Assembly (NCBI GenBank): GCA_016208165.1
Contig: JACQYL010000001.1
Location: forward strand, 8,099 to 72,098
Length of the DNA: 64,000 bases
Origin: Deltaproteobacteria bacterium
Lineage (GTDB): Bacteria > Desulfobacterota > Desulfarculia > JACQYL01
Direction: 5' to 3'
In this document: positions 29,272-61,018 of the stretch, piece after piece
How positions within the stretch are numbered: the first letter of the stretch is position 1
Layout: the number at the start of each line of letters is the position of its first letter
The notes under the pieces: model-generated
Database searches by the model: none
Told to the model about the DNA's origin: nothing
Seen by the model: the letters and a program-made list of their open reading frames with translations, nothing else
Made by a program: the position numbers and the translations under genes

Positions 29272-31005
29272 CTACTTGCGACCATACAGCGGGTCCGCTT
29301 CCTGCAGTTGGCGTCTCATGACTTTGCCCACCAGGGTCTTGGGCAGTTCGTCCCTGAATTCGATGTATTTAGGCACCTTGTAATGGGAGATGTTCTCCTT
29401 GCACCAATCCCACAGCTCCTTTTCGGTAAGCTTCTCCTTGTAGCCCGGCTTGAGCACCACCCAAACCTTGATGGCTTCCCCCGAAGCCACGTCCGGGAGG
29501 CCGGCGGCGGCCACTTCGGAGACGCCCTCGTGGTTCCCGACGAGTTCTTCGACCTCTTTGGGGAACACCGAATACCCTCTGACCTTGATCAGCTGTTTCT
29601 TCCGGTCGCTGATGCCCACCCTTCCCCATTCGTCCATGTAGCCGATATCGCCGGTCAGCAACCATCGCTTTCCATCGATTTCACGAATGGTGGATGCGGT
29701 TTCCATCGGCTGATTCAGATAGCCCACCATCACCTGGGGTCCGGCCACCCAGAGTTCGCCGGTTTCGCCTGTGGGCATTTCTTTGGTTCCCATTTCGTGG
29801 TCCATGATCTTCCAATCGGTGCCGGGCATGGGCAGGCCGATCTTGCCGATCATGCGAACCCCTTCCGTCAGCGGACCGCAGCACACCACGGGTGTTGCTT
29901 CCGAAAGGCCGTATCCCTCGACGATGATGGCGCCCGTGACCTTTTCGAACGATTCCTGAACCGGTCGGTGAAGAGGGCCGGCCCCGCTTATGCAGCAGCG
30001 GAGTTTCTTGGCAATGGGGTACTTCTCCACGCCGGGAAAGTCCGCAATGCGCTGAAACAGAACTTCCGCTCCCGAATAGTAAGTGTTCCGGTCTTCCCCA
30101 ATGGCGCAGATGGTTTTGAGCAATGCTTCGGTTTCGGGAGGTCTGGGGAACAACATCATCCACATGCCGGCCTTGATGGAAAGGTTCATTACCACGGTCA
30201 TGGCGAAGGAATGAAACAGGGGGAGCACACCCACGCTGCAGGCCCCGGCCCCACCCATGAATACCCAGGCGTCCAACTGGATCATGTTGGAGACGCAATT
30301 GAAATTGGACAACACGGCCGCCTTGGGCACTCCGGTTGTGCCTCCGGTCATAATATACGTGGCGATGTCATCGGCGCTCACATGCACTTTCGGTGGATTA
30401 GGCGGTGTACGGACAAGATCCATATACCGCACGGCTCCCGAGGGAACGGGACCATGGGGAATCTTGCCGAGCTTTTTCCCCAACCATTTCTTGAGGGGAC
30501 TCAACTTAACCTGGTCCACGATGTTGGTGACGATGAGAATCTCGATGGGATAGTCCTTCAGGATGGGCTGAACCAGGGTTTCAATGAGCGAATCCAGCAC
30601 GATGACGGCCTTGACGCCGGTAATTTTGAATTGGTGGAGCACTTCGCCGGACTTGTAGGTGGGGTTTACGCCGGTCACGATCGCGCCCAGCCGCATGCAG
30701 GCATAGTAGGAAATTACGTACTGAAACGAATTCGGCAGCACCAGCGCCACCACGTCGCCCTTCTTGATGCCCCTGGCTGCCAATCCCGCGGCCACGGAAA
30801 GGACGCGCCCGTGCAATTCGCCGAATGTCATAAACGTGTCGAGAAACCAGATCGCCTTATGGCTTTTATACTTGGCCGCCGATTCGGCGAGGACATCATA
30901 CAGACCGATCTTGGGAAACTCGAGATTCTTGGGGACTTCCGACGGCCATCCTGCTTCAGGTTGAAACCAGGGTTTGCTCTCATCAATGTAATACGGACTC
31001 TCCAT
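29272..31005 (-). CDS. fadD: long-chain-fatty-acid--CoA ligase (AMP-dependent synthetase)
   Basis: AMP-binding motifs (YIMTGGTTGVPKAAVLSNFN; GYGLSEATPVV; GWLLTGDIGYMDEWG...DRKKQLIKVRGYSVFP). Start chosen at MESPYYIDE with a strong SD (GGGGGTGGGTTATG). The antisense 571-aa ORF is rejected. Confidence 0.9.
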   Translation of the reverse strand: MESPYYIDESKPWFQPEAGWPSEVPKNLEFPKIGLYDVLAESAAKYKSHKAIWFLDTFMTFGELHGRVLSVAAGLAARGIKKGDVVALVLPNSFQYVISYYACMRLGAIVTGVNPTYKSGEVLHQFKITGVKAVIVLDSLIETLVQPILKDYPIEILIVTNIVDQVKLSPLKKWLGKKLGKIPHGPVPSGAVRYMDLVRTPPNPPKVHVSADDIATYIMTGGTTGVPKAAVLSNFNCVSNMIQLDAWVFMGGAGACSVGVLPLFHSFAMTVVMNLSIKAGMWMMLFPRPPETEALLKTICAIGEDRNTYYSGAEVLFQRIADFPGVEKYPIAKKLRCCISGAGPLHRPVQESFEKVTGAIIVEGYGLSEATPVVCCGPLTEGVRMIGKIGLPMPGTDWKIMDHEMGTKEMPTGETGELWVAGPQVMVGYLNQPMETASTIREIDGKRWLLTGDIGYMDEWGRVGISDRKKQLIKVRGYSVFPKEVEELVGNHEGVSEVAAAGLPDVASGEAIKVWVVLKPGYKEKLTEKELWDWCKENISHYKVPKYIEFRDELPKTLVGKVMRRQLQEADPLYGRK

Positions 31006-31292
31006 AACCCACCCCCTTCGTAAGGACCATGCACACCCGTTATCAGGCTGTTGAAAAGCGCGATCTGCGGCGTTGCGCTTCATCCCTCGTCACTGCGACG
31101 TACTCTATGTACGCCTTCATTCCGCGGGATTTGCGCGCCTTGCATCTCATCGTTTTTCAACGGCCTGTAACAACCCGGCTGTTTCAACGGGCTGTTATCG
31201 TTCCCGGAAACCAAGTGGTCGCAAGTCGAACACCGCCCCAGAGCCACTGTCTTTCTTAGTTCGAGCCGTCTAAAGAGCATTTGTCTTTCGAA

Positions 31293-31727
31293 CTACTTGT
31301 CGCTTTTATGTTGATTCTGTTCTTGTCGCGCTTTTTTTTCGATATCATTTGGGATTTGTCTGATGGTTTCTTCCATTTGAGTGGTCCAAGTCTTCACCCA
31401 TTCACCTTCGTCGTACGCTTCCAAGCTGTCAGCGTATATGGCATTGTACTTGCCTTTTACGTCCCCTGTTATACGGACGGTTCCAAACATATGTCGCGCG
31501 AGTATACGATTCGAAACATTCAAAACAAAATAGTACTTCCCTTCATCCGTGTACACGATAATATGTTCCGCAGTGGCTGCAACAGGGTCTTCCTGGTTGA
31601 TAGGGCAGGATATACCGTAAATGACACACATAAACGGTTTCACGGTTCCTTCGATTTGTCCCGCCAATGCGGGCATACATCCCACTAACAAAACACACGT
31701 CATCAAGGCAATCAGGCTTTTTTTCAA
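31293..31727 (-). CDS. secreted protein, paralog B of the MC...C-P family
   Basis: Signal peptide MKKSLIALMTCVLLVGCMPALAGQ, then the same conserved positions as 22008..22427. It has a longer Lys/Gln-rich tail. Confidence 0.7.
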   Translation of the reverse strand: MKKSLIALMTCVLLVGCMPALAGQIEGTVKPFMCVIYGISCPINQEDPVAATAEHIIVYTDEGKYYFVLNVSNRILARHMFGTVRITGDVKGKYNAIYADSLEAYDEGEWVKTWTTQMEETIRQIPNDIEKKARQEQNQHKSDK

Positions 31728-32384
31728 GGTCTTATCTCCTCATAGAGCATCCTGTGTTGAAGCTACGATCCGACCCCTATCTTCATCGGTCCGAATCCCC
31801 GATACGGCGGGATTATATCGTTATCAACGGGTTGGAGCAAGGGAAAGTCGGACCTTTTCTACCGAAGATTCCGCCTGGGGTCGAATCAGCGGGGGGCCGG
31901 GAGGAATCGTACGGGAACGCATCCGAGCTTTCTTTTCGATTTCATCCGTTGATCCAACCTGTTCCCGTTCGCTCTCTCGCACCGGCGGAGCATGCGATGT
32001 CGCTTGACCGCCCTTTTATTCGGCCGGTATACTGCCTGGGTTCGCAGGGATGGTCGCTCGGCATCGCGGTTTGTATGCGAATTCCTAAATGCGAAGCCGC
32101 GACCATTTCTTTTGCGGGTTGACACACTGCCGTCCGGCTATCATGTTATGAATTATATTTGATGAACTCGTAAAGACTCGAGAGCGACCGTTTTCCGTCA
32201 TTCCGGTGAAAGCAGGAATCCAGTAATTTCATATACTTATGGATGCAGGATCAAGTCCGGTATGACGCCGTGGGGACTTTTTACGAAGGCCTCAAATTTG
32301 AGACAGCCTTGGCAGGGGCCCCTTCGGGAAGACACCTCGCCGGATTCCGTTTTTTTGACGACCACGAACGATTTGAGTGATCCC

Positions 32385-34877: not shown

Positions 34878-35640
34878 TCCGGGATCATGATCGACAAAAC
34901 CAACATCATCGCAGCGTTGCTGGAGAGATTGGACAACACGCCCATGGGGCATCATCCGGATATCCGGCCGTATAAAAGAAACTGATCGGTCGTGGTCGTG
35001 CGAAGGACCGAAACGGTTTATGAAATCATTGAAGAAGGATTCTTCTGCGACCGTTTTTCCGTGGAGGCCTCCGGGTTGAAGAAAAGCCTGCGGGTAATGA
35101 TCAAAAAGGAGTTTCCGCGAAGCCACAAAATATGGGTGTACGCCATGGAGCCGTATCCGCAGGAAGAACCGCACGGCACGGAGAGAAAGAAGATTTGAGG
35201 ATTGTTTCACAGATGGTCCGCTTGGGGCCACGGAAAGAGAGGCTGTTGGGTAAGCTAGAGAATCGGAAAGAAGTCAACATGCGGGCTTGCCCCCCGACAC
35301 AGTCCTCTCTCGATAAAATGATATGATTCCGACCTCCTTCCGGGAATTCTTTCCAGAAAGTCCTAAGCTTGCTTCTCTTGGCTTTTCTGGCTATAAATAT
35401 CGACGAATACGGGCTAATAATACAGCAAGGCCTTTTGCATAAACTCTTCATTAGGTTAGGAGCGTCATCGGGGGCAGCGAAGTAAGGAAGATCGTCCTTC
35501 TTGAAGTGATGCGATGTTCAAGGCGGGTACTCTGAAAAGACTGAACAATCTGTTCATCTACCGGGAGCGAATCGCCAAAAAGCTGTTTGTCTCGGAACTC
35601 TGTTACAACCGATCCCTTTAATAGAGCCAGGGGAACGCAC

Positions 35641-36816
35641 ATGAATCGATTTGAAAACCTTCAAGAATTAGAAATAGACACTGAATCGGCATGCTCCGAT
35701 TCCGCCCCAGAAGACGGTGGTGTTGAACCCGAGGAAGTGGAGGGAGACGAGCCCATAACACAGCCCTTCGATCCCACAAAGACGCAGATCATCACTTCAT
35801 GGCCGACGGTTAGCCTCTTGGTGACGAGGATACAAGAGGGAGAAATCGATCTGTTCCCAAGTTTTCAGAGAAAGGCGGACCTCTGGTCGCCAGCCCAGAA
35901 AAGTCGCCTGATAGAATCATTACTGCTTCGCATGCCCCTGCCCTCTTTCTATTTCGACGCCACTGACGACGAAAACTGGGTCGTAGTGGATGGACTGCAG
36001 CGTCTTTGGACGTTACAGGAGTTTCTCCTAAGCGACATGAGGCTTCATCACCTCGAGTTTTTGATTAATTACGAAAATAGCATGTTCAAAGACTTACCCC
36101 GACACCTGCAGAGACGTATCGGAGAGACGCAGGTCGTTGCGCATCTCATTCAGCCGGGCACACCACCCCAGGTAAAGTTTAACATATTTAGGCGAATCAA
36201 CACGGGTGGATTAGTTCTCTCGGCCCAAGAGATCAGGCACGCACTGAATCAAGGGAATGCACCCCAATTCCTAAAGAAACTCGCGTGCTCGAAGGCTTTC
36301 TTAGAGGCGACCCAAGGGAGCGTGCGCCCCGATCGTATGGAAGATCAGGAATTTGTACTTCGTTTCATGGCTTTCACGATCGTTCCGTACCCTCAATATA
36401 AGGTAGCAGATCTTGATGGGTTTCTGCATGAACAAATGGCTAGATTGAACACCGTCGGAAATGATGAGCTCGAAGACCTAGAGGTGAGATTTCAACGGGC
36501 TATGAGAGCATCAAGGCTGATCTTTGGAAGACAGGCCTTCAGGAAAAGCCTTAGGGATGGGGTTTCGGCCTGGAGAAATCCCATCAACAAGGCCATCTTT
36601 GAGGTCTGGTCCGTCACTCTGGGCCAACTCACTGAAGATAAATTAGAACATTTAATCCACCGAAAAGATGACGTCATCAGTAGATTTATTGAGGTTTTGA
36701 ACACTAATGACGAGTTTGTCGCCGCGGTATCTCAAGGAACTGGGGACGTAAAGAAAGTGAAGCAGCGGTTTAAAACCGTTGCCAAACTTGTAGAGGATAT
36801 CCTCAATGCAAACTAA
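35641..36816 (+). CDS. DUF262 (ParB-like/GmrSD N-terminal nuclease-like) domain protein
   Basis: ...FQRKADLWSPAQKSRLIESLLLRMPLPSFYFDA....WVVVDGLQRLWTL is the DUF262 DGQQR-type motif. Acidic N-terminal extension. Start at MNRFENLQ with SD GGGGAA. Stop overlaps the next gene. Confidence 0.8.
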   Translation: MNRFENLQELEIDTESACSDSAPEDGGVEPEEVEGDEPITQPFDPTKTQIITSWPTVSLLVTRIQEGEIDLFPSFQRKADLWSPAQKSRLIESLLLRMPLPSFYFDATDDENWVVVDGLQRLWTLQEFLLSDMRLHHLEFLINYENSMFKDLPRHLQRRIGETQVVAHLIQPGTPPQVKFNIFRRINTGGLVLSAQEIRHALNQGNAPQFLKKLACSKAFLEATQGSVRPDRMEDQEFVLRFMAFTIVPYPQYKVADLDGFLHEQMARLNTVGNDELEDLEVRFQRAMRASRLIFGRQAFRKSLRDGVSAWRNPINKAIFEVWSVTLGQLTEDKLEHLIHRKDDVISRFIEVLNTNDEFVAAVSQGTGDVKKVKQRFKTVAKLVEDILNAN

Positions 36817-37927
36817 TCACCTGCAGGCCATCCATCTAATGAATTTTAAGTGCTTCGAAGACCAGAAGGTTTCGCTTGCTCCGATTACCCTCCTCACAGG
36901 TCTCAACGGCATGGGTAAGTCAACAGTATTACAGAGCTTGTTGCTGCTTCGACAATCGGCCATGCGGAACGTGTTGGAACACTATGGTTTGCTACTGAAC
37001 GGCGATTTGGTGAATCTGGGCAGGGCAGGCGATGTGCTGTTCGAAGGTGCTCGAGACGAGCATATTGTTCTTGAATTGACCGTTGGCGGGATGCAGGAGT
37101 CCTGGAAATTCAGGTATGAGGATCCCCATGCGGACGTGCTGATGCTGGAAGAGGGACCAAAGGTCTTGCCTGAATGGGTGGTTTTCGGCAATCGATTCCA
37201 TTATTTGGCGGCTGAGCGCATGGGGCCACGAGAAATCTACGAGATCTCTGCCTACTATGTTCGCAAATTGCGACAATTGGGCGCAGATGGGCGATTCGCG
37301 GTGGCCTATCTTGAAGAATACGGAAAAAGCCTGCGGTGCCTCCAAGGGTTGCTGCATCCGAAAACCTCTGACTCGACGGAGGAAAATCTTTATTCACAGG
37401 TTAACTTGTGGCTGGGAGAAATCAGTCCTGGTGCGCGATTGGAACCGATTTCCTTCCCGGACATAGGCAAGACTTCGTTGAGGGTTTCCTTTCCTTCTTC
37501 TACCAAGGGGCTAATGTCCAGACCATATTCGACGCCCAATGTCGGCTTCGGTTTCAGTTATACGCTCCCGGTTCTTGTGGCCGTTCTGTCGTCTTCTTCA
37601 GGAGATTTGGTTCTCATGGAAAATCCGGAGGCACATCTGCATCCGCAGGGACAAGTGGCGTTGGGGCGACTGTTCGCACTCGCCGCGTCTGGCGGGATAC
37701 AACTCATTGTGGAGACTCACAGTGATCATATACTGAACGGAGTACGCGTAGAAGTGAGGGATGGTTGTATTGCCAGCGAGGATGTGCGCATTCATTTTTT
37801 CCAACGGAACCAGCCTGGTGGGCAGCATTTTGTGGAGTCTCCTCGGGTGGATAAGGATGGACGAATCGATAACTGGCCGGAAGGATTTTTCGATCAAACA
37901 GAGCGTCTCCTAATGGAATTGATTTAA
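36806..37927 (+). CDS. AAA/ABC-type ATPase (AAA_21-like) with DUF3696-like C-terminal tail
   Basis: Walker A (LTGLNGMGKSTVL), Walker B/D-loop (LVLMENPEAHLHP), H-loop (VETHSDH). C-terminal ...NWPEGFFDQ. Overlaps the upstream gene by 11 bp. Confidence 0.78.
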   Translation: MQTNHLQAIHLMNFKCFEDQKVSLAPITLLTGLNGMGKSTVLQSLLLLRQSAMRNVLEHYGLLLNGDLVNLGRAGDVLFEGARDEHIVLELTVGGMQESWKFRYEDPHADVLMLEEGPKVLPEWVVFGNRFHYLAAERMGPREIYEISAYYVRKLRQLGADGRFAVAYLEEYGKSLRCLQGLLHPKTSDSTEENLYSQVNLWLGEISPGARLEPISFPDIGKTSLRVSFPSSTKGLMSRPYSTPNVGFGFSYTLPVLVAVLSSSSGDLVLMENPEAHLHPQGQVALGRLFALAASGGIQLIVETHSDHILNGVRVEVRDGCIASEDVRIHFFQRNQPGGQHFVESPRVDKDGRIDNWPEGFFDQTERLLMELI

Positions 37928-37945
37928 GGCCGCAGGGTTCCCCGA

Positions 37946-38902
37946 TTGCATCAGATATTGAACGAGTTGTCTTTCCAGAAGGTCTCTACGAGCGTAAAGG
38001 ATGCCCAGGAACGCATGCATATGCTCTTGCTCGTTTTCAAGGCCGTTGCTGATTGCGGTTCTGAGAAGATCCTTCGTACCAAACGAAACCTTATGTCCGA
38101 ATTGGTTGCTTCCCAATATACTGTCTCGCACTGGCTTCAGGACAGACGCGTGAACCGGGACGAACGGTTATTATTCAAGACCGTAGCAACGAAAGCCCCT
38201 TTTGTCGAGGAACTCTGGAACAAATTGGAATCAGACGACTTGGGCCTGCACGAATTCTATTTCCAAGGTCAAAAAGCTGAGGGTTTGGGCGTGGCTTATC
38301 TTGACGATACATGTGCTCTTTCCCTTGGAGGTGATCAGAGGTTCGAACAGGATCCCATTCAAGTCGTGTATCAAGTGATGTATGCCCTAAATAGTAGATT
38401 GGGATCCGAAACTGTGGAAGTCTGCTCTTTGAGTAACTTAGACCATGTATGCCGCCGTTGCGTATGGATTGGTGAACGTGCTCAAAGACAGGTCGTCGAT
38501 GGGGTCTCACTCTGGGAGCAAAAGGAATCTCTATTTCCTCGTCTCGCGTTTCTCCCTGCAACCAAGGCGCAAATTCAACAGTTATCGGGGCGTGAACCTC
38601 ATTTCCGCCAAGTTCTTAAACATCTTTTCATACTGAACAGTGCGATGAAAAAGTGGGCTGGAGGGCCGTACAACCCGGAAGGCATCGAATGGTCCGCAGA
38701 AAGCCTGTCTACAAGGACCAGCAAGAAACTTGCGGACGCCCGCAGGTTTTCTAATTCTAACGGTAACTTCGCAGTATATAATTACCACACGAAGATTAGA
38801 GGCATCAACTGGCGCATACACTTCCATCCTGATACTGAAAAACAGATCGTGACCATAGCATACATAGGACGACATCTGCCAACAGCCAGACACGGAAAGT
38901 AA
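37946..38902 (+). CDS. hypothetical protein with RelE/ParE-toxin-like C-terminal segment
   Basis: 18 bp downstream of the ATPase. The last approx 45 aa (GNFAVYNYHTKIRGINWRIHFHPDTEKQIVTIAYIGRH) follow the RelE/ParE pattern (..Y.lRi.g.yRiiy.vd.e...v.vl.igHR). The N-terminal 270 aa are unrecognised. Confidence 0.55.
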   Translation: MHQILNELSFQKVSTSVKDAQERMHMLLLVFKAVADCGSEKILRTKRNLMSELVASQYTVSHWLQDRRVNRDERLLFKTVATKAPFVEELWNKLESDDLGLHEFYFQGQKAEGLGVAYLDDTCALSLGGDQRFEQDPIQVVYQVMYALNSRLGSETVEVCSLSNLDHVCRRCVWIGERAQRQVVDGVSLWEQKESLFPRLAFLPATKAQIQQLSGREPHFRQVLKHLFILNSAMKKWAGGPYNPEGIEWSAESLSTRTSKKLADARRFSNSNGNFAVYNYHTKIRGINWRIHFHPDTEKQIVTIAYIGRHLPTARHGK

Positions 38903-39197
38903 AAGCAGCCGACTCAAGTTCAAGACTTCCATTCTTTTTTTTGCAGAAGCGGAACAGCTATTCGGTTTCCGATTGGGATCTCAATATTTACCTGCCAGGA
39001 TCATGATCCTTTTCTCCCCCACTGCGGCCGCATTTTTTAAATAGACGACCACCGGATTTCGTTCTATATTCAGGTACATCCTCTTCTAAAGGGAGCTCTG
39101 GAGGTTCATTCGTCGGGGAGCGGGCCTGGTGGCGCCGGCTGAGCAGGTAGGAAGTTCCCCCGGCGGACCGGGCCGATTCGAACCATGGGATGACCCT

Positions 39198-58555: not shown

Positions 58556-59188
58556 ACGCATGCATTCCCGTTTTTTCCCGCCGGGATCATCTCCTTCGTT
58601 CAGCGTCGGCTGTCAGAACTCCATGGGTTTGGCGGATAACTTGTCAATCGTTTGACACACGGATAAAATATGAACAGAAGACGGGTAAGATGAGCAATGG
58701 CCGTATAGGAATACAGGATTGTTCTTCGATGAACGGGAAAGAAAAGAGGTTTCTTTTTTCCAGGAGCATCTCCGGTAAAGGTCCGTTCACAGGACGAGAA
58801 GCAAGGTGATGCCTGAGGTCTGTTCAGAGGGTCGAAATCGGCGTCTATTCGAGTTCTCCTGCAGCCCTCGTTCAGCCCACCGACGAGGGCCGGCAGGTCC
58901 CGTAAGGGCGGGTTTGAAACCCGCTCCCAGATCATGATCCGCCTTCACTTTTTCGGACGCGGGTAACCCTTGGTTCCCCTCCAATCAGGATGAGGCGGGG
59001 CGTGAGGAACTGTCGTAGTACGAGCCGGTCTCAGTATCAGACCATTCTTGGGATATCCGGGAGGTGTCGTGTTGGCGGGGCGACGGATTGGCGCATTTCA
59101 AAAGAGGCTTTCGAGCGAGCCTATTGGCACATAAATTGCTCGGTTTAGGGAAAAGCATGTTCCACGCGCCCGATAGACAAGTAAGAAA

Positions 59189-61018
59189 ATGGTGAATAAG
59201 ACCATGACACTCAGTCATATTATCCAAGAGGCGAACCGGAAGCTTGAAACCGAAAGGGACGAACTGGTCAAGGTCGCCAAGGCCGAAAAATACCGGGGTA
59301 CCGTTGATGAAATCATGGAATTCCTGGATCAATACGACGGCCATTTTCAAGACACCAATGTCCAGGTGGTGAAGGCGGCTTTGGAAACGTTTCTCAGACG
59401 TCTTTCTCCCCCTGCGCTTAAACTGACGATGGCTTCCATGAAGCGCCAGGTAGGTATACAACTGGGCTCGGCAACCCAGGAGCCCTCCAATTCAGCTTCC
59501 GGAGGTGGCTCAGTGATCTCTCAAAGCGATATCGACGCTCTGCTCAAGGGGGCCAACGCTTCCGAGGAATCTACAAGCGCTTTCGAACAATCAGAGATCG
59601 ACGCGCTTCTCGGGGAGATTGAGGAACTTGGCCCGCAGTCAGGGAAAAGGCCTTCGGGCACACCGGCGAAAAAGCCGTTGGAAAGGTCTCCCCAAGCATC
59701 CACCGATCTGGGAGATCCAGACTTGATCGTGGATCAATCCGCCATTGATGCGCTTCTTGCCGGAGTAAAAGAGGACGCGAGCGCCAAAAGAACGGCCGGT
59801 ACGCCTTTGGTTGCGAAGAAAACGCCCGGCAAGAGCGTTGGACACGAATCCCGCACAACGGAACGTCCGTTTTTTGAGGAAGAAATAGTCAGTCAAACGG
59901 ACATCGACGCCCTTCTTTCTCAGGGGATGGTGTCCAAAAAAGAAATCGGCGTGGAGGCGGAAAGAGCGCTGGATCCTTCGCTGGTGGAGGAACTGCTGGC
60001 GCAGATTCAAACGGATGCGAAGCCTGAAGAATCAGCGGTGGTGGAAGACGCATCGGACCTCTCTCCCGAGACGGGATTTCCGACATCAGAGGATACGAAT
60101 ATAGATCAATCCTCCATCGACGCTCTTTTTTCGCAGGAAGCGGGGTCGCAGAAAGCACTCGAGGCCGAGGCCCAGGCGGCGCTGGATCAGACTTCCGTGG
60201 AGGAGCTGCTGGCGCAGATTGAAACGGATGCGAAGCCTGAAGAATCAGCGGTGGTGGAAGACGCATCGGACCTCTCTCCCGAGACGGGATTTTCGTCGTC
60301 GGAGGATACGAATATAGTTCAATCCTCCATCGATGCTCTTTTTTCGCAGGAAGCGGCGCCGGAAGAAAAGGACCAACTTGCCGATAGGGATTCATGGCTC
60401 GTCAATGGAACATCCGGTATAGAGGAAGCAGAAGCTCTGCTCGCGCCCGAAGGAGGGCCGATGCAGGCTTTCCCGGAAGAGGAGATGCCGGCCGCCGGAG
60501 AGGCGGCTTCCCCGGAATCTGCGGAGATTCCCATGGCTCCGGATCTGGAAGCAGGCGACGTGCCGTTGGAGATTGAATTACCGCTTATTGAACCCGTGCC
60601 CGATCAGCAGCGTGTGGTGGACGCCATCGTCGAGGCTACACGGAAAAAAGTGTCACAGAATCTTCCGCCCGCCGGCAAGAATCAACCCTCGCCCGGTGAG
60701 CATGTCCAGGGCGCAGTCGTCGGCAAGGAGGCTGCATTCCGTTCGCAAGACATAGGCAGGGAGCGCATTTTAGAAGAAAGAGGCGAGGCGAAAGTGCTGG
60801 ACACCTTCTATCGGATCTATGCCTGCGTCAACGGAAGCTATGAACTCCTATCGGAATCGAGCAGCGCGGAAGAGACGAAACAAAAACTGATGACCGCATG
60901 GATGGATCACGCAGGGAAAGATATTGTAATCAAACGTGTAACCCGAAAAGAGGTGCTGGTCATTAAAGAGGACCTCGATGACGTTCCGGTTCGCCTGGAA
61001 GTCACGTTGGATTCCTGA
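59189..61018 (+). CDS. protein with six tandem FliM-N-terminal-type CheY-binding peptides (xSQ[ST][DE]IDALL) and an unassigned C-terminal domain
   Basis: Motifs VISQSDIDALL, EQSEIDALL, VDQSAIDALL, VSQTDIDALL, DQSSIDALF, VQSSIDALF between roughly 59500 and 60360, including a near-perfect ~210-bp tandem duplication. Stop is 28 bp before fliN. Confidence 0.7.
   Translation: MVNKTMTLSHIIQEANRKLETERDELVKVAKAEKYRGTVDEIMEFLDQYDGHFQDTNVQVVKAALETFLRRLSPPALKLTMASMKRQVGIQLGSATQEPSNSASGGGSVISQSDIDALLKGANASEESTSAFEQSEIDALLGEIEELGPQSGKRPSGTPAKKPLERSPQASTDLGDPDLIVDQSAIDALLAGVKEDASAKRTAGTPLVAKKTPGKSVGHESRTTERPFFEEEIVSQTDIDALLSQGMVSKKEIGVEAERALDPSLVEELLAQIQTDAKPEESAVVEDASDLSPETGFPTSEDTNIDQSSIDALFSQEAGSQKALEAEAQAALDQTSVEELLAQIETDAKPEESAVVEDASDLSPETGFSSSEDTNIVQSSIDALFSQEAAPEEKDQLADRDSWLVNGTSGIEEAEALLAPEGGPMQAFPEEEMPAAGEAASPESAEIPMAPDLEAGDVPLEIELPLIEPVPDQQRVVDAIVEATRKKVSQNLPPAGKNQPSPGEHVQGAVVGKEAAFRSQDIGRERILEERGEAKVLDTFYRIYACVNGSYELLSESSSAEETKQKLMTAWMDHAGKDIVIKRVTRKEVLVIKEDLDDVPVRLEVTLDS

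What the first reader, a model, noticed from the sequence alone, without database searches (positions are those of the whole stretch)
35641..38902. Three-gene lower-GC operon: DUF262 nuclease-like protein + AAA ATPase (DUF3696-like) + protein with RelE/ParE-like C-terminus - candidate uncharacterised defence/abortive-infection module
Arrangement: the three ORFs are tightly packed (an 11-bp overlap, then an 18-bp gap) and sit after a ~700-bp gene-free, AT-richer stretch (34880-35640). On one side is an M16 peptidase pair; on the other an alpha/beta hydrolase.

Gene 1 carries the DUF262 FQR...DGLQRLW motif, the ParB/GmrSD-like NTPase/nuclease fold that recurs in anti-phage systems.

Gene 2 is an ABC/AAA_21-type ATPase with Walker A, Walker B and H-loop intact, plus a short conserved C-terminal tail.

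Gene 3 is unrecognisable except for its last ~45 residues, which follow the RelE/ParE toxin pattern ending IGHR-like (IAYIGRH). That suggests a toxin-fold effector fused to a larger sensor/scaffold.

I do not recognise this exact trio as a named system. Each component family is defence-island associated, which is established knowledge. The operon logic (ATPase sensor + nuclease + toxin-like effector) is inference.
Basis: partly seen in the sequence, partly recalled or inferred. Interest (0 to 1): 0.85.

Follow-up and report, generated by a model that had tools for sequence, protein, structure and literature searches.

The report
Menshen (NsnABC) anti-phage defence operon

Summary
The three tightly packed, lower-GC genes at 35641-38902 are real. 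They match the PADLOC models for NsnA (E 1e-136), NsnB (4e-111) and NsnC (1e-65), each over nearly its full length. This is the Menshen system, Type I.

- **NsnA:** it has the ParB-DUF262 motifs and no DUF1524 nuclease domain.
- **NsnB:** it is an ABC ATPase with the family's unusual Walker B (LVLMEN) and GFG signature, plus the DUF3696 tail.

The same gene order recurs in about 80 unrelated genomes. The C-terminal effector is sometimes swapped, for example to a Gp49 type. dN/dS is at most 0.18 for all three genes, so the system is maintained by selection.

The most likely mechanism follows the published model. NsnA senses phage DNA, NsnB transduces the signal through ATP, and NsnC cleaves RNA.

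Minor new points:
- The "gene-free" gap holds a small ORF with a nonsense codon.
- The deposited NsnC start is 25 residues too short.
- nsnAB and nsnC differ about 3- to 5-fold in synonymous divergence from the closest relative.

Interest is low because the system is already known.

The parts
35199..35640 (+). Non-coding leader upstream of nsnA, presumed to hold the promoter. AGGGGA Shine-Dalgarno 8-13 nt before the ATG.
   Evidence: No ORF with family support. 89.5% identical to the closest relative L086. No sigma-70 consensus match, Rfam hit or tRNA.
35641..36816 (+). nsnA (391 aa). Acidic N-terminal loop (about residues 1-60), ParB-DUF262 domain (residues 64-201, nt 35830-36243), C-terminal ParBDB-type region (about residues 202-389). 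No DUF1524. Type I Menshen sensor.
   Evidence: PADLOC NsnA E 1e-136, residues 26-389 against profile 22-384/385. Pfam GmrSD_N 1.6e-20. Motifs QRKADLW, DGLQR and FRRIN are conserved in 80 family members. NCBI MBI4772599.1.
36806..37927 (+). nsnB (373 aa). ABC-type ATPase (residues 1-321) plus DUF3696 helical tail (residues 322-372, nt 37769-37921). Proposed transducer that holds NsnC.
   Evidence: PADLOC NsnB 4.4e-111, residues 6-373 against profile 2-343/345. Pfam AAA_15 7e-21, AAA_21 4e-20, DUF3696 1.4e-16. Walker A GLNGMGKS, Walker B LVLMEN (E in all 85 aligned relatives, N in 83), GFG 247-249, H305. NCBI MBI4772600.1.
37946..38656 (+). nsnC N-terminal domain (about residues 1-237). Rossmann-like, weakly PIN-like fold, with the conserved LNELS motif at residues 5-9.
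38657..38902 (+). nsnC C-terminal BECR (RelE/YoeB/YafQ-like) RNase effector domain (about residues 238-318; the N-terminal boundary is uncertain, 218-248). Candidate catalytic residues are H281, R290 and H310, plus E252, R266 and Y306.

Best explanation
This is a complete, selectively maintained Type I Menshen (NsnA-NsnB-NsnC) anti-phage defence operon. It lies on its own among housekeeping genes in an uncultured deltaproteobacterial genome.

**Shown here**
- Each protein matches its Menshen family model over the full length, and the family's diagnostic motifs are present.
- Gene order is conserved across phyla.
- NsnC is predicted to consist of a PIN-like N-terminal domain and a RelE/YoeB/YafQ-like (BECR) C-terminal domain with a conserved His-Arg-His set.

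**Inferred mechanism, following the published model (about 50-60% likely in its details)**
1. NsnA binds phage DNA, or a feature of it, through its ParB-DUF262 NTPase and C-terminal DNA-binding domains.
2. This stimulates the NsnB ABC ATPase. NsnB is predicted to form a tetramer that holds NsnC's N-terminal domain between pairs of DUF3696 tails.
3. ATP binding or hydrolysis releases or allosterically activates NsnC.
4. NsnC's metal-independent BECR RNase cleaves RNA, either phage transcripts or host translation RNAs, and this stops phage production, possibly by abortive infection.
For: - **PADLOC:** NsnA 1e-136, NsnB 4.4e-111 and NsnC 1e-65, all near full length and far above the next systems: PD-T4-2_A 7e-33, HEC-03B 9e-36, AriA 2e-23.
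- **Pfam:** GmrSD_N, AAA_15/AAA_21 and DUF3696.
- **Motifs:** they match the published description exactly (PMC12065111). Walker B is EN instead of DE, GxG replaces the SGG signature, an H-loop is present, and NsnA has the QRx(3-4)W, DGxQR and FxxxN motifs.
- **Synteny:** of 85 loci held (80 from the NsnB-anchored scan), 78 have NsnA upstream and 79 have a third gene downstream, typically with a 4-bp overlap and then a 3-bp gap. 76 share the N-terminal domain and 64 the C-terminal domain.
- **Effector swapping:** Gp49-type and other C-termini occur on the same N-terminal family.
- **Selection:** dN/dS against the closest relative is 0.135, 0.179 and 0.116.
- **Experimental validation of the system:** cited (Millman et al. 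2022; deletion or mutation of the DUF262 gene abolishes defence).
Against: - No experiment exists on this locus.
- The mechanism of Menshen itself is unresolved. The published model rests on structure prediction and analogy to PARIS, Septu and Gabija.
- Sequence profiles do not link the C-terminal domain to RelE/YoeB.
- This NsnC departs from its own family consensus at several conserved positions: the CPDG..R hairpin reads NSNG..A, and H161 is Ser. Reduced or altered activity is therefore possible.
- There is no neighbouring defence gene or mobile element to corroborate a defence context.
Confidence: 0.9

Rival explanations
1. Same system, different effector logic. NsnC would be a dual nuclease in which the PIN-like N-terminal domain is also catalytically active, or the real target would be DNA rather than RNA.
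For: A 2026 preprint argues that PIN domains of some Menshen effectors retain acidic active-site residues. In this family E7 is 100% Asp/Glu at the end of strand 1, where the first PIN acidic residue would sit. D66 (92%) and E103 (95%) are also conserved acidic positions.
Confidence: 0.15
2. The operon is a decaying or inactive remnant of a horizontally acquired island and no longer provides defence.
For: GC3 remains 0.12-0.19 below that of the flanking genes. The adjacent small ORF carries a nonsense codon. This NsnC lacks several family-consensus residues. Some relatives have truncated gene 3 copies: L085, L031, L042, L049.
Against: All three reading frames are intact and full length against the profiles. 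All diagnostic motifs are intact. dN/dS is 0.12-0.18 at dS 0.14-0.66 against the closest relative, which indicates purifying selection.
Confidence: 0.05
3. It is primarily a toxin-antitoxin-like addiction or stabilisation module, with a RelE-like toxin restrained by the ATPase, rather than an anti-phage system.
For: NsnC has a RelE-superfamily fold. AAA_21 is annotated as the 'AbiEii toxin, Type IV TA system' family. The operon behaves as a compositionally foreign insert.
Against: There is no small antitoxin gene next to nsnC and no plasmid or prophage context. The homologous system was validated as anti-phage. The DUF262 sensor gene is conserved and required in the archetype.
Confidence: 0.04
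4. It belongs to another DUF262- or ABC-ATPase-based system: PD-T4-2, Dazbog, a GmrSD/BrxU-type modification-dependent restriction enzyme, PARIS, Septu, Gabija or HEC-03.
For: Weaker PADLOC hits exist: PD-T4-2_A 7e-33, HEC-03B 9e-36, AriA 2e-23, GajA 3e-14, PtuA 1.5e-12.
Against: NsnA/B/C scores are 75-100 orders of magnitude better and cover the full length. No DUF1524, Toprim, HNH or DUF4435 partner domain was found.
Confidence: 0.01

Closest known systems
Menshen system NsnABC (archetype Solibacillus silvestris StLB046; Millman et al. 2022; dissected in Li et al. 2025, PMC12065111)
   Same: Same three genes in the same order. NsnA has ParB-DUF262 plus a C-terminal DNA-binding region and no extra N-terminal domain (Type I). 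NsnB has the EN Walker B, the GxG signature and the DUF3696 tail. NsnC has a PIN-like N-terminal domain and a BECR C-terminal domain with an H-R-H set.
   Different: The host differs (an uncultured deltaproteobacterium). This NsnC is a divergent member of its own family, with median 29% identity to 62 homologues, and it lacks the CPDG..R hairpin consensus and H161. I could not assign the paper's inPIN and PB-BECR family numbers because the archetype sequence and the supplement were unavailable.
PARIS (AriA-AriB), Septu (PtuA-PtuB) and Gabija (GajA)
   Same: An OLD/AAA_15-type ABC ATPase oligomer holds or controls a nuclease effector. NsnB hits the AriA, PtuA and GajA profiles weakly. The published models show a GajA-like tetramer and PARIS/Septu-like asymmetric effector binding.
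   Different: Menshen adds a separate ParB-DUF262 sensor protein. Its effector is a BECR RNase fused to a PIN-like adaptor rather than a Toprim or HNH nuclease. This is not a member of those families.
GmrSD / BrxU / SspE (DUF262-DUF1524 enzymes)
   Same: A DUF262 NTPase domain with the same three motifs, followed by a helical DNA-binding region. It is the proposed sensor of phage DNA features.
   Different: No DUF1524 nuclease domain is fused to it. The nuclease function is supplied in trans by NsnC through NsnB.
RelE-superfamily type II toxins (YoeB, YafQ, RelE, HigB, ParE)
   Different: There is no detectable sequence homology. The domain is fused to a 237-residue N-terminal domain. There is no cognate small antitoxin. 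Whether cleavage depends on the ribosome is unknown.

Membership tests
Menshen (NsnABC) | Three co-directional, tightly coupled genes in the order nsnA, nsnB, nsnC | tested here: met
   11-bp overlap and 18-bp gap. The same order occurs in L001-L005 and in the loci from the NsnB-anchored scan: of 85 loci, 78 have NsnA upstream and 79 have a third gene downstream.
Menshen (NsnABC) | NsnA has a ParB-DUF262 domain with motifs QRxxxW, DGxQR and FxxxN | tested here: met
   Pfam GmrSD_N 1.6e-20. QRKADLW (four intervening residues, as in most of the 80 relatives), DGLQR and FRRIN.
Menshen (NsnABC) | NsnA has a C-terminal ParBDB-type region and no DUF1524 nuclease domain | tested here: met
   The PADLOC NsnA profile is matched at positions 22-384 of 385 by residues 26-389. 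There is no DUF1524 hit at E<=1. The fold of this region was not predicted here.
Menshen (NsnABC) | NsnB is an ABC ATPase with Walker A GxxxxGKS, Walker B hhhhEN, GxG in place of SGG, an H-loop, and a C-terminal DUF3696 | tested here: met
   GLNGMGKS, LVLMEN, GFG, ETHSDH. DUF3696 1.4e-16. PADLOC NsnB 4.4e-111.
Menshen (NsnABC) | NsnC has an N-terminal PIN-like (inPIN) domain | tested here: inconclusive
Menshen (NsnABC) | NsnC has a C-terminal toxin/nuclease effector domain (most often BECR) | tested here: met
Menshen (NsnABC) | Protects against phage, with NsnA required | not testable with these tools
   Known only for the S. silvestris archetype, as cited.
Menshen (NsnABC) | NsnB tetramer binds the NsnC N-terminal domain via DUF3696 | not testable with these tools
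   Published AlphaFold 3 prediction only. No multimer prediction is available here.
GmrSD/BrxU/SspE type IV restriction-like enzymes | DUF262 fused to a DUF1524 HNH-like nuclease | tested here: not met
   No DUF1524 is found in any of the three proteins.
Type II RelBE/ParDE/YefM-YoeB toxin-antitoxin modules | A small stand-alone toxin of about 85-100 aa with an adjacent small antitoxin gene, and sequence membership of the ParE_toxin/YoeB/HigB families | tested here: not met
   The toxin fold is the C-terminal third of a 318-aa protein. There is no adjacent small ORF on the + strand. There are no Pfam, PDB-sequence or HHalign matches. Only the fold is shared.
PARIS / Septu / Gabija | An ABC ATPase paired or fused with a Toprim (AriB, GajA C-terminus) or HNH (PtuB) nuclease | tested here: not met
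   Only weak ATPase-domain hits (AriA 2e-23, GajA 3e-14, PtuA 1.5e-12). No Toprim or HNH domain is found.

The most novel reading that the evidence does not exclude
The window and its closest relative may capture Menshen module exchange in a natural population. The sensor-transducer block (leader, nsnA and nsnB; dS 0.14-0.23) is about 3- to 5-fold less diverged at synonymous sites than the effector gene nsnC (dS 0.66) and the flanking core genes (0.48-0.55), with the break at the nsnB/nsnC junction. In addition, this NsnC is a divergent BECR sub-lineage that has lost the family's CPDG..R hairpin and H161, which could mean a changed RNA target. If both held, the locus would be a small natural example of how Menshen recombines sensors and effectors.
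Probability: 0.15. Interest if true: 0.3.

Novelty: already known. Interest (0 to 1): 0.15.

Why it matters
It adds little. Three modest points remain:
- It documents a solitary Type I Menshen in an uncultured deltaproteobacterium whose proteins are deposited only as "DUF262", "DUF3696" and "hypothetical".
- It corrects the NsnC start codon.
- It provides a pair of closely related loci with mosaic divergence that could be used to study effector turnover.

Menshen's mechanism is still not settled by experiment, but this copy offers no special handle on it.

Tried and rejected
2. **Selenocysteine reading of the in-frame TGA at 34983.** Rejected, because the relative has CGA (Arg) at that position.
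3. **The small ORF as a Menshen accessory gene or M16 partner.** Rejected. It has no homologue in any of the other 164 loci held, no Pfam hit, and host-like GC3 of 0.67.
4. **The 14-nt direct repeat at 34879 and 38995 as an att site or target-site duplication.** Not supported. The right-hand copy is not conserved in L086, and about two such pairs are expected by chance in 4.9 kb (my estimate).
5. **Empty-site test for insertion.** The metagenome scan with the M16 peptidase returned only same-population contigs, or contigs that end at the gene.
6. **Checking whether this locus is in the published catalogue of 1997 Menshen systems.** The supplement is not held.
7. **tRNA, Rfam and promoter scans of the leader and the window.** Nothing was found.
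8. **Defence-island context.** None. The neighbours are signalling, transport and metabolic genes.
9. **BECR-Tox2 assignment.** Rejected on residue pattern. That family has a KH motif in an N-terminal extension, whereas here the conserved residues are on strands 2 and 3 and after strand 4.
Full report
**1. The observation**

Three + strand ORFs lie at 35641-36816, 36806-37927 and 37946-38902, with an 11-bp overlap and an 18-bp gap. GC falls to 0.47-0.52 across them against 0.57-0.65 on both sides. Third-position GC is 0.54, 0.55 and 0.51 for the three genes against 0.66-0.71 for the M16 peptidases, the hydrolase and the RND efflux genes. The quoted sequence motifs are all present.

One detail is wrong. 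The stretch 34880-35640 is not gene-free. Positions 34887-35198 form a small ORF that is intact (about 103 aa) in the closest relative. In the window it is interrupted by TGA at 34983-34985, where the relative reads CGA. The real non-coding leader is 35199-35640.

**2. What it is**

Pfam assigns gene 1 to GmrSD_N/DUF262 (1.6e-20). It assigns gene 2 to AAA_15/AAA_21 plus DUF3696 (1.4e-16). It finds nothing for gene 3.

Against PADLOC-DB the three proteins match NsnA (1e-136, residues 26-389 on profile 22-384/385), NsnB (4.4e-111, 6-373 on 2-343/345) and NsnC (1e-65, 2-312 on 4-304/305). The next-best systems are far weaker: PD-T4-2_A at 7e-33, HEC-03B at 9e-36 and AriA at 2e-23.

NsnA, NsnB and NsnC are the components of Menshen. 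The system was discovered and validated by Millman et al. 2022 in Solibacillus silvestris. It is the subject of a dedicated comparative study (Li et al., NAR 2025, PMC12065111). A review notes that mutating or deleting the DUF262 gene abolishes Menshen defence (PMC10952713).

The window's proteins are deposited as MBI4772599.1 ("DUF262 domain-containing"), MBI4772600.1 ("DUF3696 domain-containing") and MBI4772601.1 ("hypothetical"). They come from a Deltaproteobacteria MAG, on an 88.5-kb contig.

**3. Feature-by-feature test**

The paper defines the family by several features.
- NsnA has the motifs QRxxxW, DGxQR and FxxxN, followed by a DNA-binding C-terminal domain and no DUF1524.
- NsnB has Walker A GxxxxGKS, Walker B with EN in place of DE, GxG in place of the SGG signature, a sensor His and a DUF3696 tail.
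- NsnC has an inactive-PIN-like N-terminal domain and a C-terminal effector, most often a BECR RNase with an H-R-H triad in the archetype.

The window has the following.
- NsnA: QRKADLW, DGLQR and FRRIN.
- NsnB: GLNGMGKS, LVLMEN, GFG and ETHSDH.

Across the 85 aligned relatives, the Walker B Glu is present in all 85 and the Asn in 83. NsnA has only an acidic loop of about 60 residues before the DUF262 domain, which makes this a Type I Menshen by the paper's definition.

**4. Gene 3 and the RelE-like claim**

Word-indexed homology search found only 13 relatives. With that alignment, AlphaFold2 gave a confident model: mean pLDDT 90.8 and pTM 0.76.

H281, R290, G308 and H310 are invariant in the 13-sequence alignment. 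In a 63-sequence family alignment H281 is 98% and R290 and G308 are 100% conserved, and position 310 is His or Lys. This pattern fits the published PB-BECR1/YafQ-like arrangement. It does not fit BECR-Tox2, whose KH motif lies in an N-terminal extension.

No sequence method recovers the link: Pfam on all 13 members, PDB profile searches and HHalign against YoeB all fail.

The conserved LNELS motif at residues 5-9 lies upstream of the deposited start codon. It is also encoded, behind a TTG with an AGGA Shine-Dalgarno sequence, in the closest relative. The TTG at 37946 is therefore the real start, and the deposited 293-aa protein is 25 residues short.

**5. Conservation of the trio**

Three distant gene-3 homologues sit directly after a DUF262 gene and an AAA_15/DUF3696 gene, with unrelated flanks. 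They come from Oscillatoria, another cyanobacterium, and a genome with a 2.7-Mb contig.

A scan of species-representative genomes anchored on NsnB found at least 576 relatives. The best 80 are mostly Cyanobacteria, with some Chloroflexota, Myxococcota, Acidobacteriota, Planctomycetota, heliobacteria and deltaproteobacteria.

In the 85 loci analysed:
- 78 have NsnA immediately upstream. The others are contig edges or a start-codon artefact of my script.
- 79 have a third gene immediately downstream. Four are at contig edges and two have none.
- 76 of the third genes match the window-type N-terminal domain, but only 64 match the window-type C-terminal domain.

Among the exceptions, L024, L055 and L062 carry a Gp49/HigB-type C-terminus (Pfam Gp49 1.8e-5 for L024). 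L018, L030 and L057 carry a third type. L085, L031, L042 and L049 look truncated. This is the effector polymorphism already described for Menshen.

**6. Is it functional here?**

The closest relative is contig L086 (JGI 3300027690, syntenic from the M16 peptidase to the HlyD-like gene). Against it, dN/dS is 0.135 for nsnA, 0.179 for nsnB and 0.116 for nsnC, so all three genes are under purifying selection.

The shared synteny shows that the operon predates the split of these two populations, even though its GC3 has not equilibrated with the host.

dS is uneven. It is 0.23 for nsnA and 0.14 for nsnB, against 0.66 for nsnC, 0.55 for M16, 0.48 for HlyD and 0.26 for the hydrolase. The leader is 89.5% identical. 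The simplest reading is a later recombination that homogenised the leader-nsnA-nsnB block. With only two genomes this remains an inference.

**7. Context**

The window contains no tRNA, no Rfam family, and no integrase or transposase. No other defence gene was found among the large ORFs examined. Li et al. report that about 28% of Menshen operons adjoin BREX or restriction-modification genes. This one does not.

A 14-nt direct repeat brackets the low-GC segment. Its GGATCATGATC core occurs at three sites in the window, giving 4 strand matches against 0.08 expected. The right-hand copy is not conserved in L086, so I do not read it as an attachment site. An empty-site test was not possible.

**8. 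Mechanism**

The identity, architecture and conservation are shown by the results above. The mechanism is inferred from the published model and its analogies.
1. NsnA senses phage DNA through its ParB-DUF262 NTPase and DNA-binding domains, as DUF262 does in GmrSD and SspE.
2. NsnB forms a GajA-like tetramer whose DUF3696 tails clamp the NsnC N-terminal domain, as in PARIS and Septu.
3. ATP binding or hydrolysis triggered by NsnA releases or activates NsnC.
4. The BECR domain cleaves RNA.

Three questions remain open: whether the target is phage or host RNA, whether the PIN-like domain is only an adaptor or RNA binder (Li et al.) or is catalytically active (the 2026 preprint), and how NsnA signals to NsnB. 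Mass photometry in a 2025 preprint indicates that Menshen forms higher-order complexes, but the stoichiometry was not resolved.

**9. Verdict**

However, the trio is an ordinary member of a named, validated and bioinformatically dissected system. The novelty rating is "already known" and the interest is low. The small additions are the corrected NsnC start, the disrupted upstream ORF, the divergent effector residues and the mosaic synonymous divergence.

Noticed in passing
window 34887-35198: A small ORF immediately after the M16 peptidase. It is intact in the closest relative (about 103 aa in L086, L087 and L088) and interrupted in the window by TGA at 34983-34985, where the relatives read CGA (Arg). 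It has no Pfam hit, occurs only in this lineage, has host-like GC3 (0.67), and shows dN/dS 0.23. It is a nonsense mutation or a sequencing error, not selenocysteine.
   Followed up: yes
window 35199-38902 against L086: Mosaic synonymous divergence from the closest relative. dS is 0.23 for nsnA and 0.14 for nsnB, and the leader is 89.5% identical, while dS is 0.66 for nsnC, 0.55 for M16 and 0.48 for HlyD. The break falls in the 18-bp nsnB-nsnC spacer (56% identity). This suggests recombination of the sensor-transducer block independently of the effector gene.
   Followed up: partly
window 37946-38020: The deposited NsnC (MBI4772601.1, 293 aa) and the gene call in L086 both start at an internal ATG. 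The conserved LNELS motif and the full-length profile matches show that the real start is the TTG at 37946 (318 aa).
   Followed up: yes
window 38426-38902 (NsnC residues 161, 270-276): The window's NsnC and its 85%-identical relative depart from otherwise strongly conserved family positions. H161 is Ser, C270-P271-D272 reads N-S-N, and R276 is Ala. The H281/R290/H310 set is retained. This may mean altered substrate recognition.
   Followed up: partly
window 34879-34892, 38995-39009 and 58930-58940: The GGATCATGATC core, which contains the 10-nt palindrome GATCATGATC, occurs at three sites (4 strand matches against 0.08 expected from shuffles). Two of the sites bracket the low-GC Menshen segment as a 14-nt direct repeat. 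The right-hand copy is not conserved in L086, so its significance is unclear.
   Followed up: partly
L024 3013-3939, L055 5105-6001, L062 3902-5011; L018, L030, L057: Gene-3 homologues with the same N-terminal domain family as the window carry different C-terminal effectors. One group is Gp49/HigB-type (Pfam Gp49 1.8e-5 for L024). A second group has an unrelated C-terminus ending ...FYEFQSDNAGGFHGYPV.... L085, L031, L042 and L049 appear truncated after the N-terminal domain.
   Followed up: partly
window 31000-32260: A second lower-GC stretch (0.44-0.53) between the acyl-CoA synthetase gene and the M16 peptidases has no long ORF. Its only notable ORF is a 144-aa minus-strand ORF (31293-31727) with a lipoprotein-like signal sequence (MKKSLIALMTCVLLVGC...).
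   Followed up: no
window 59189-61018: A 609-aa + strand ORF has no Pfam family at E<=1e-5.
   Followed up: no
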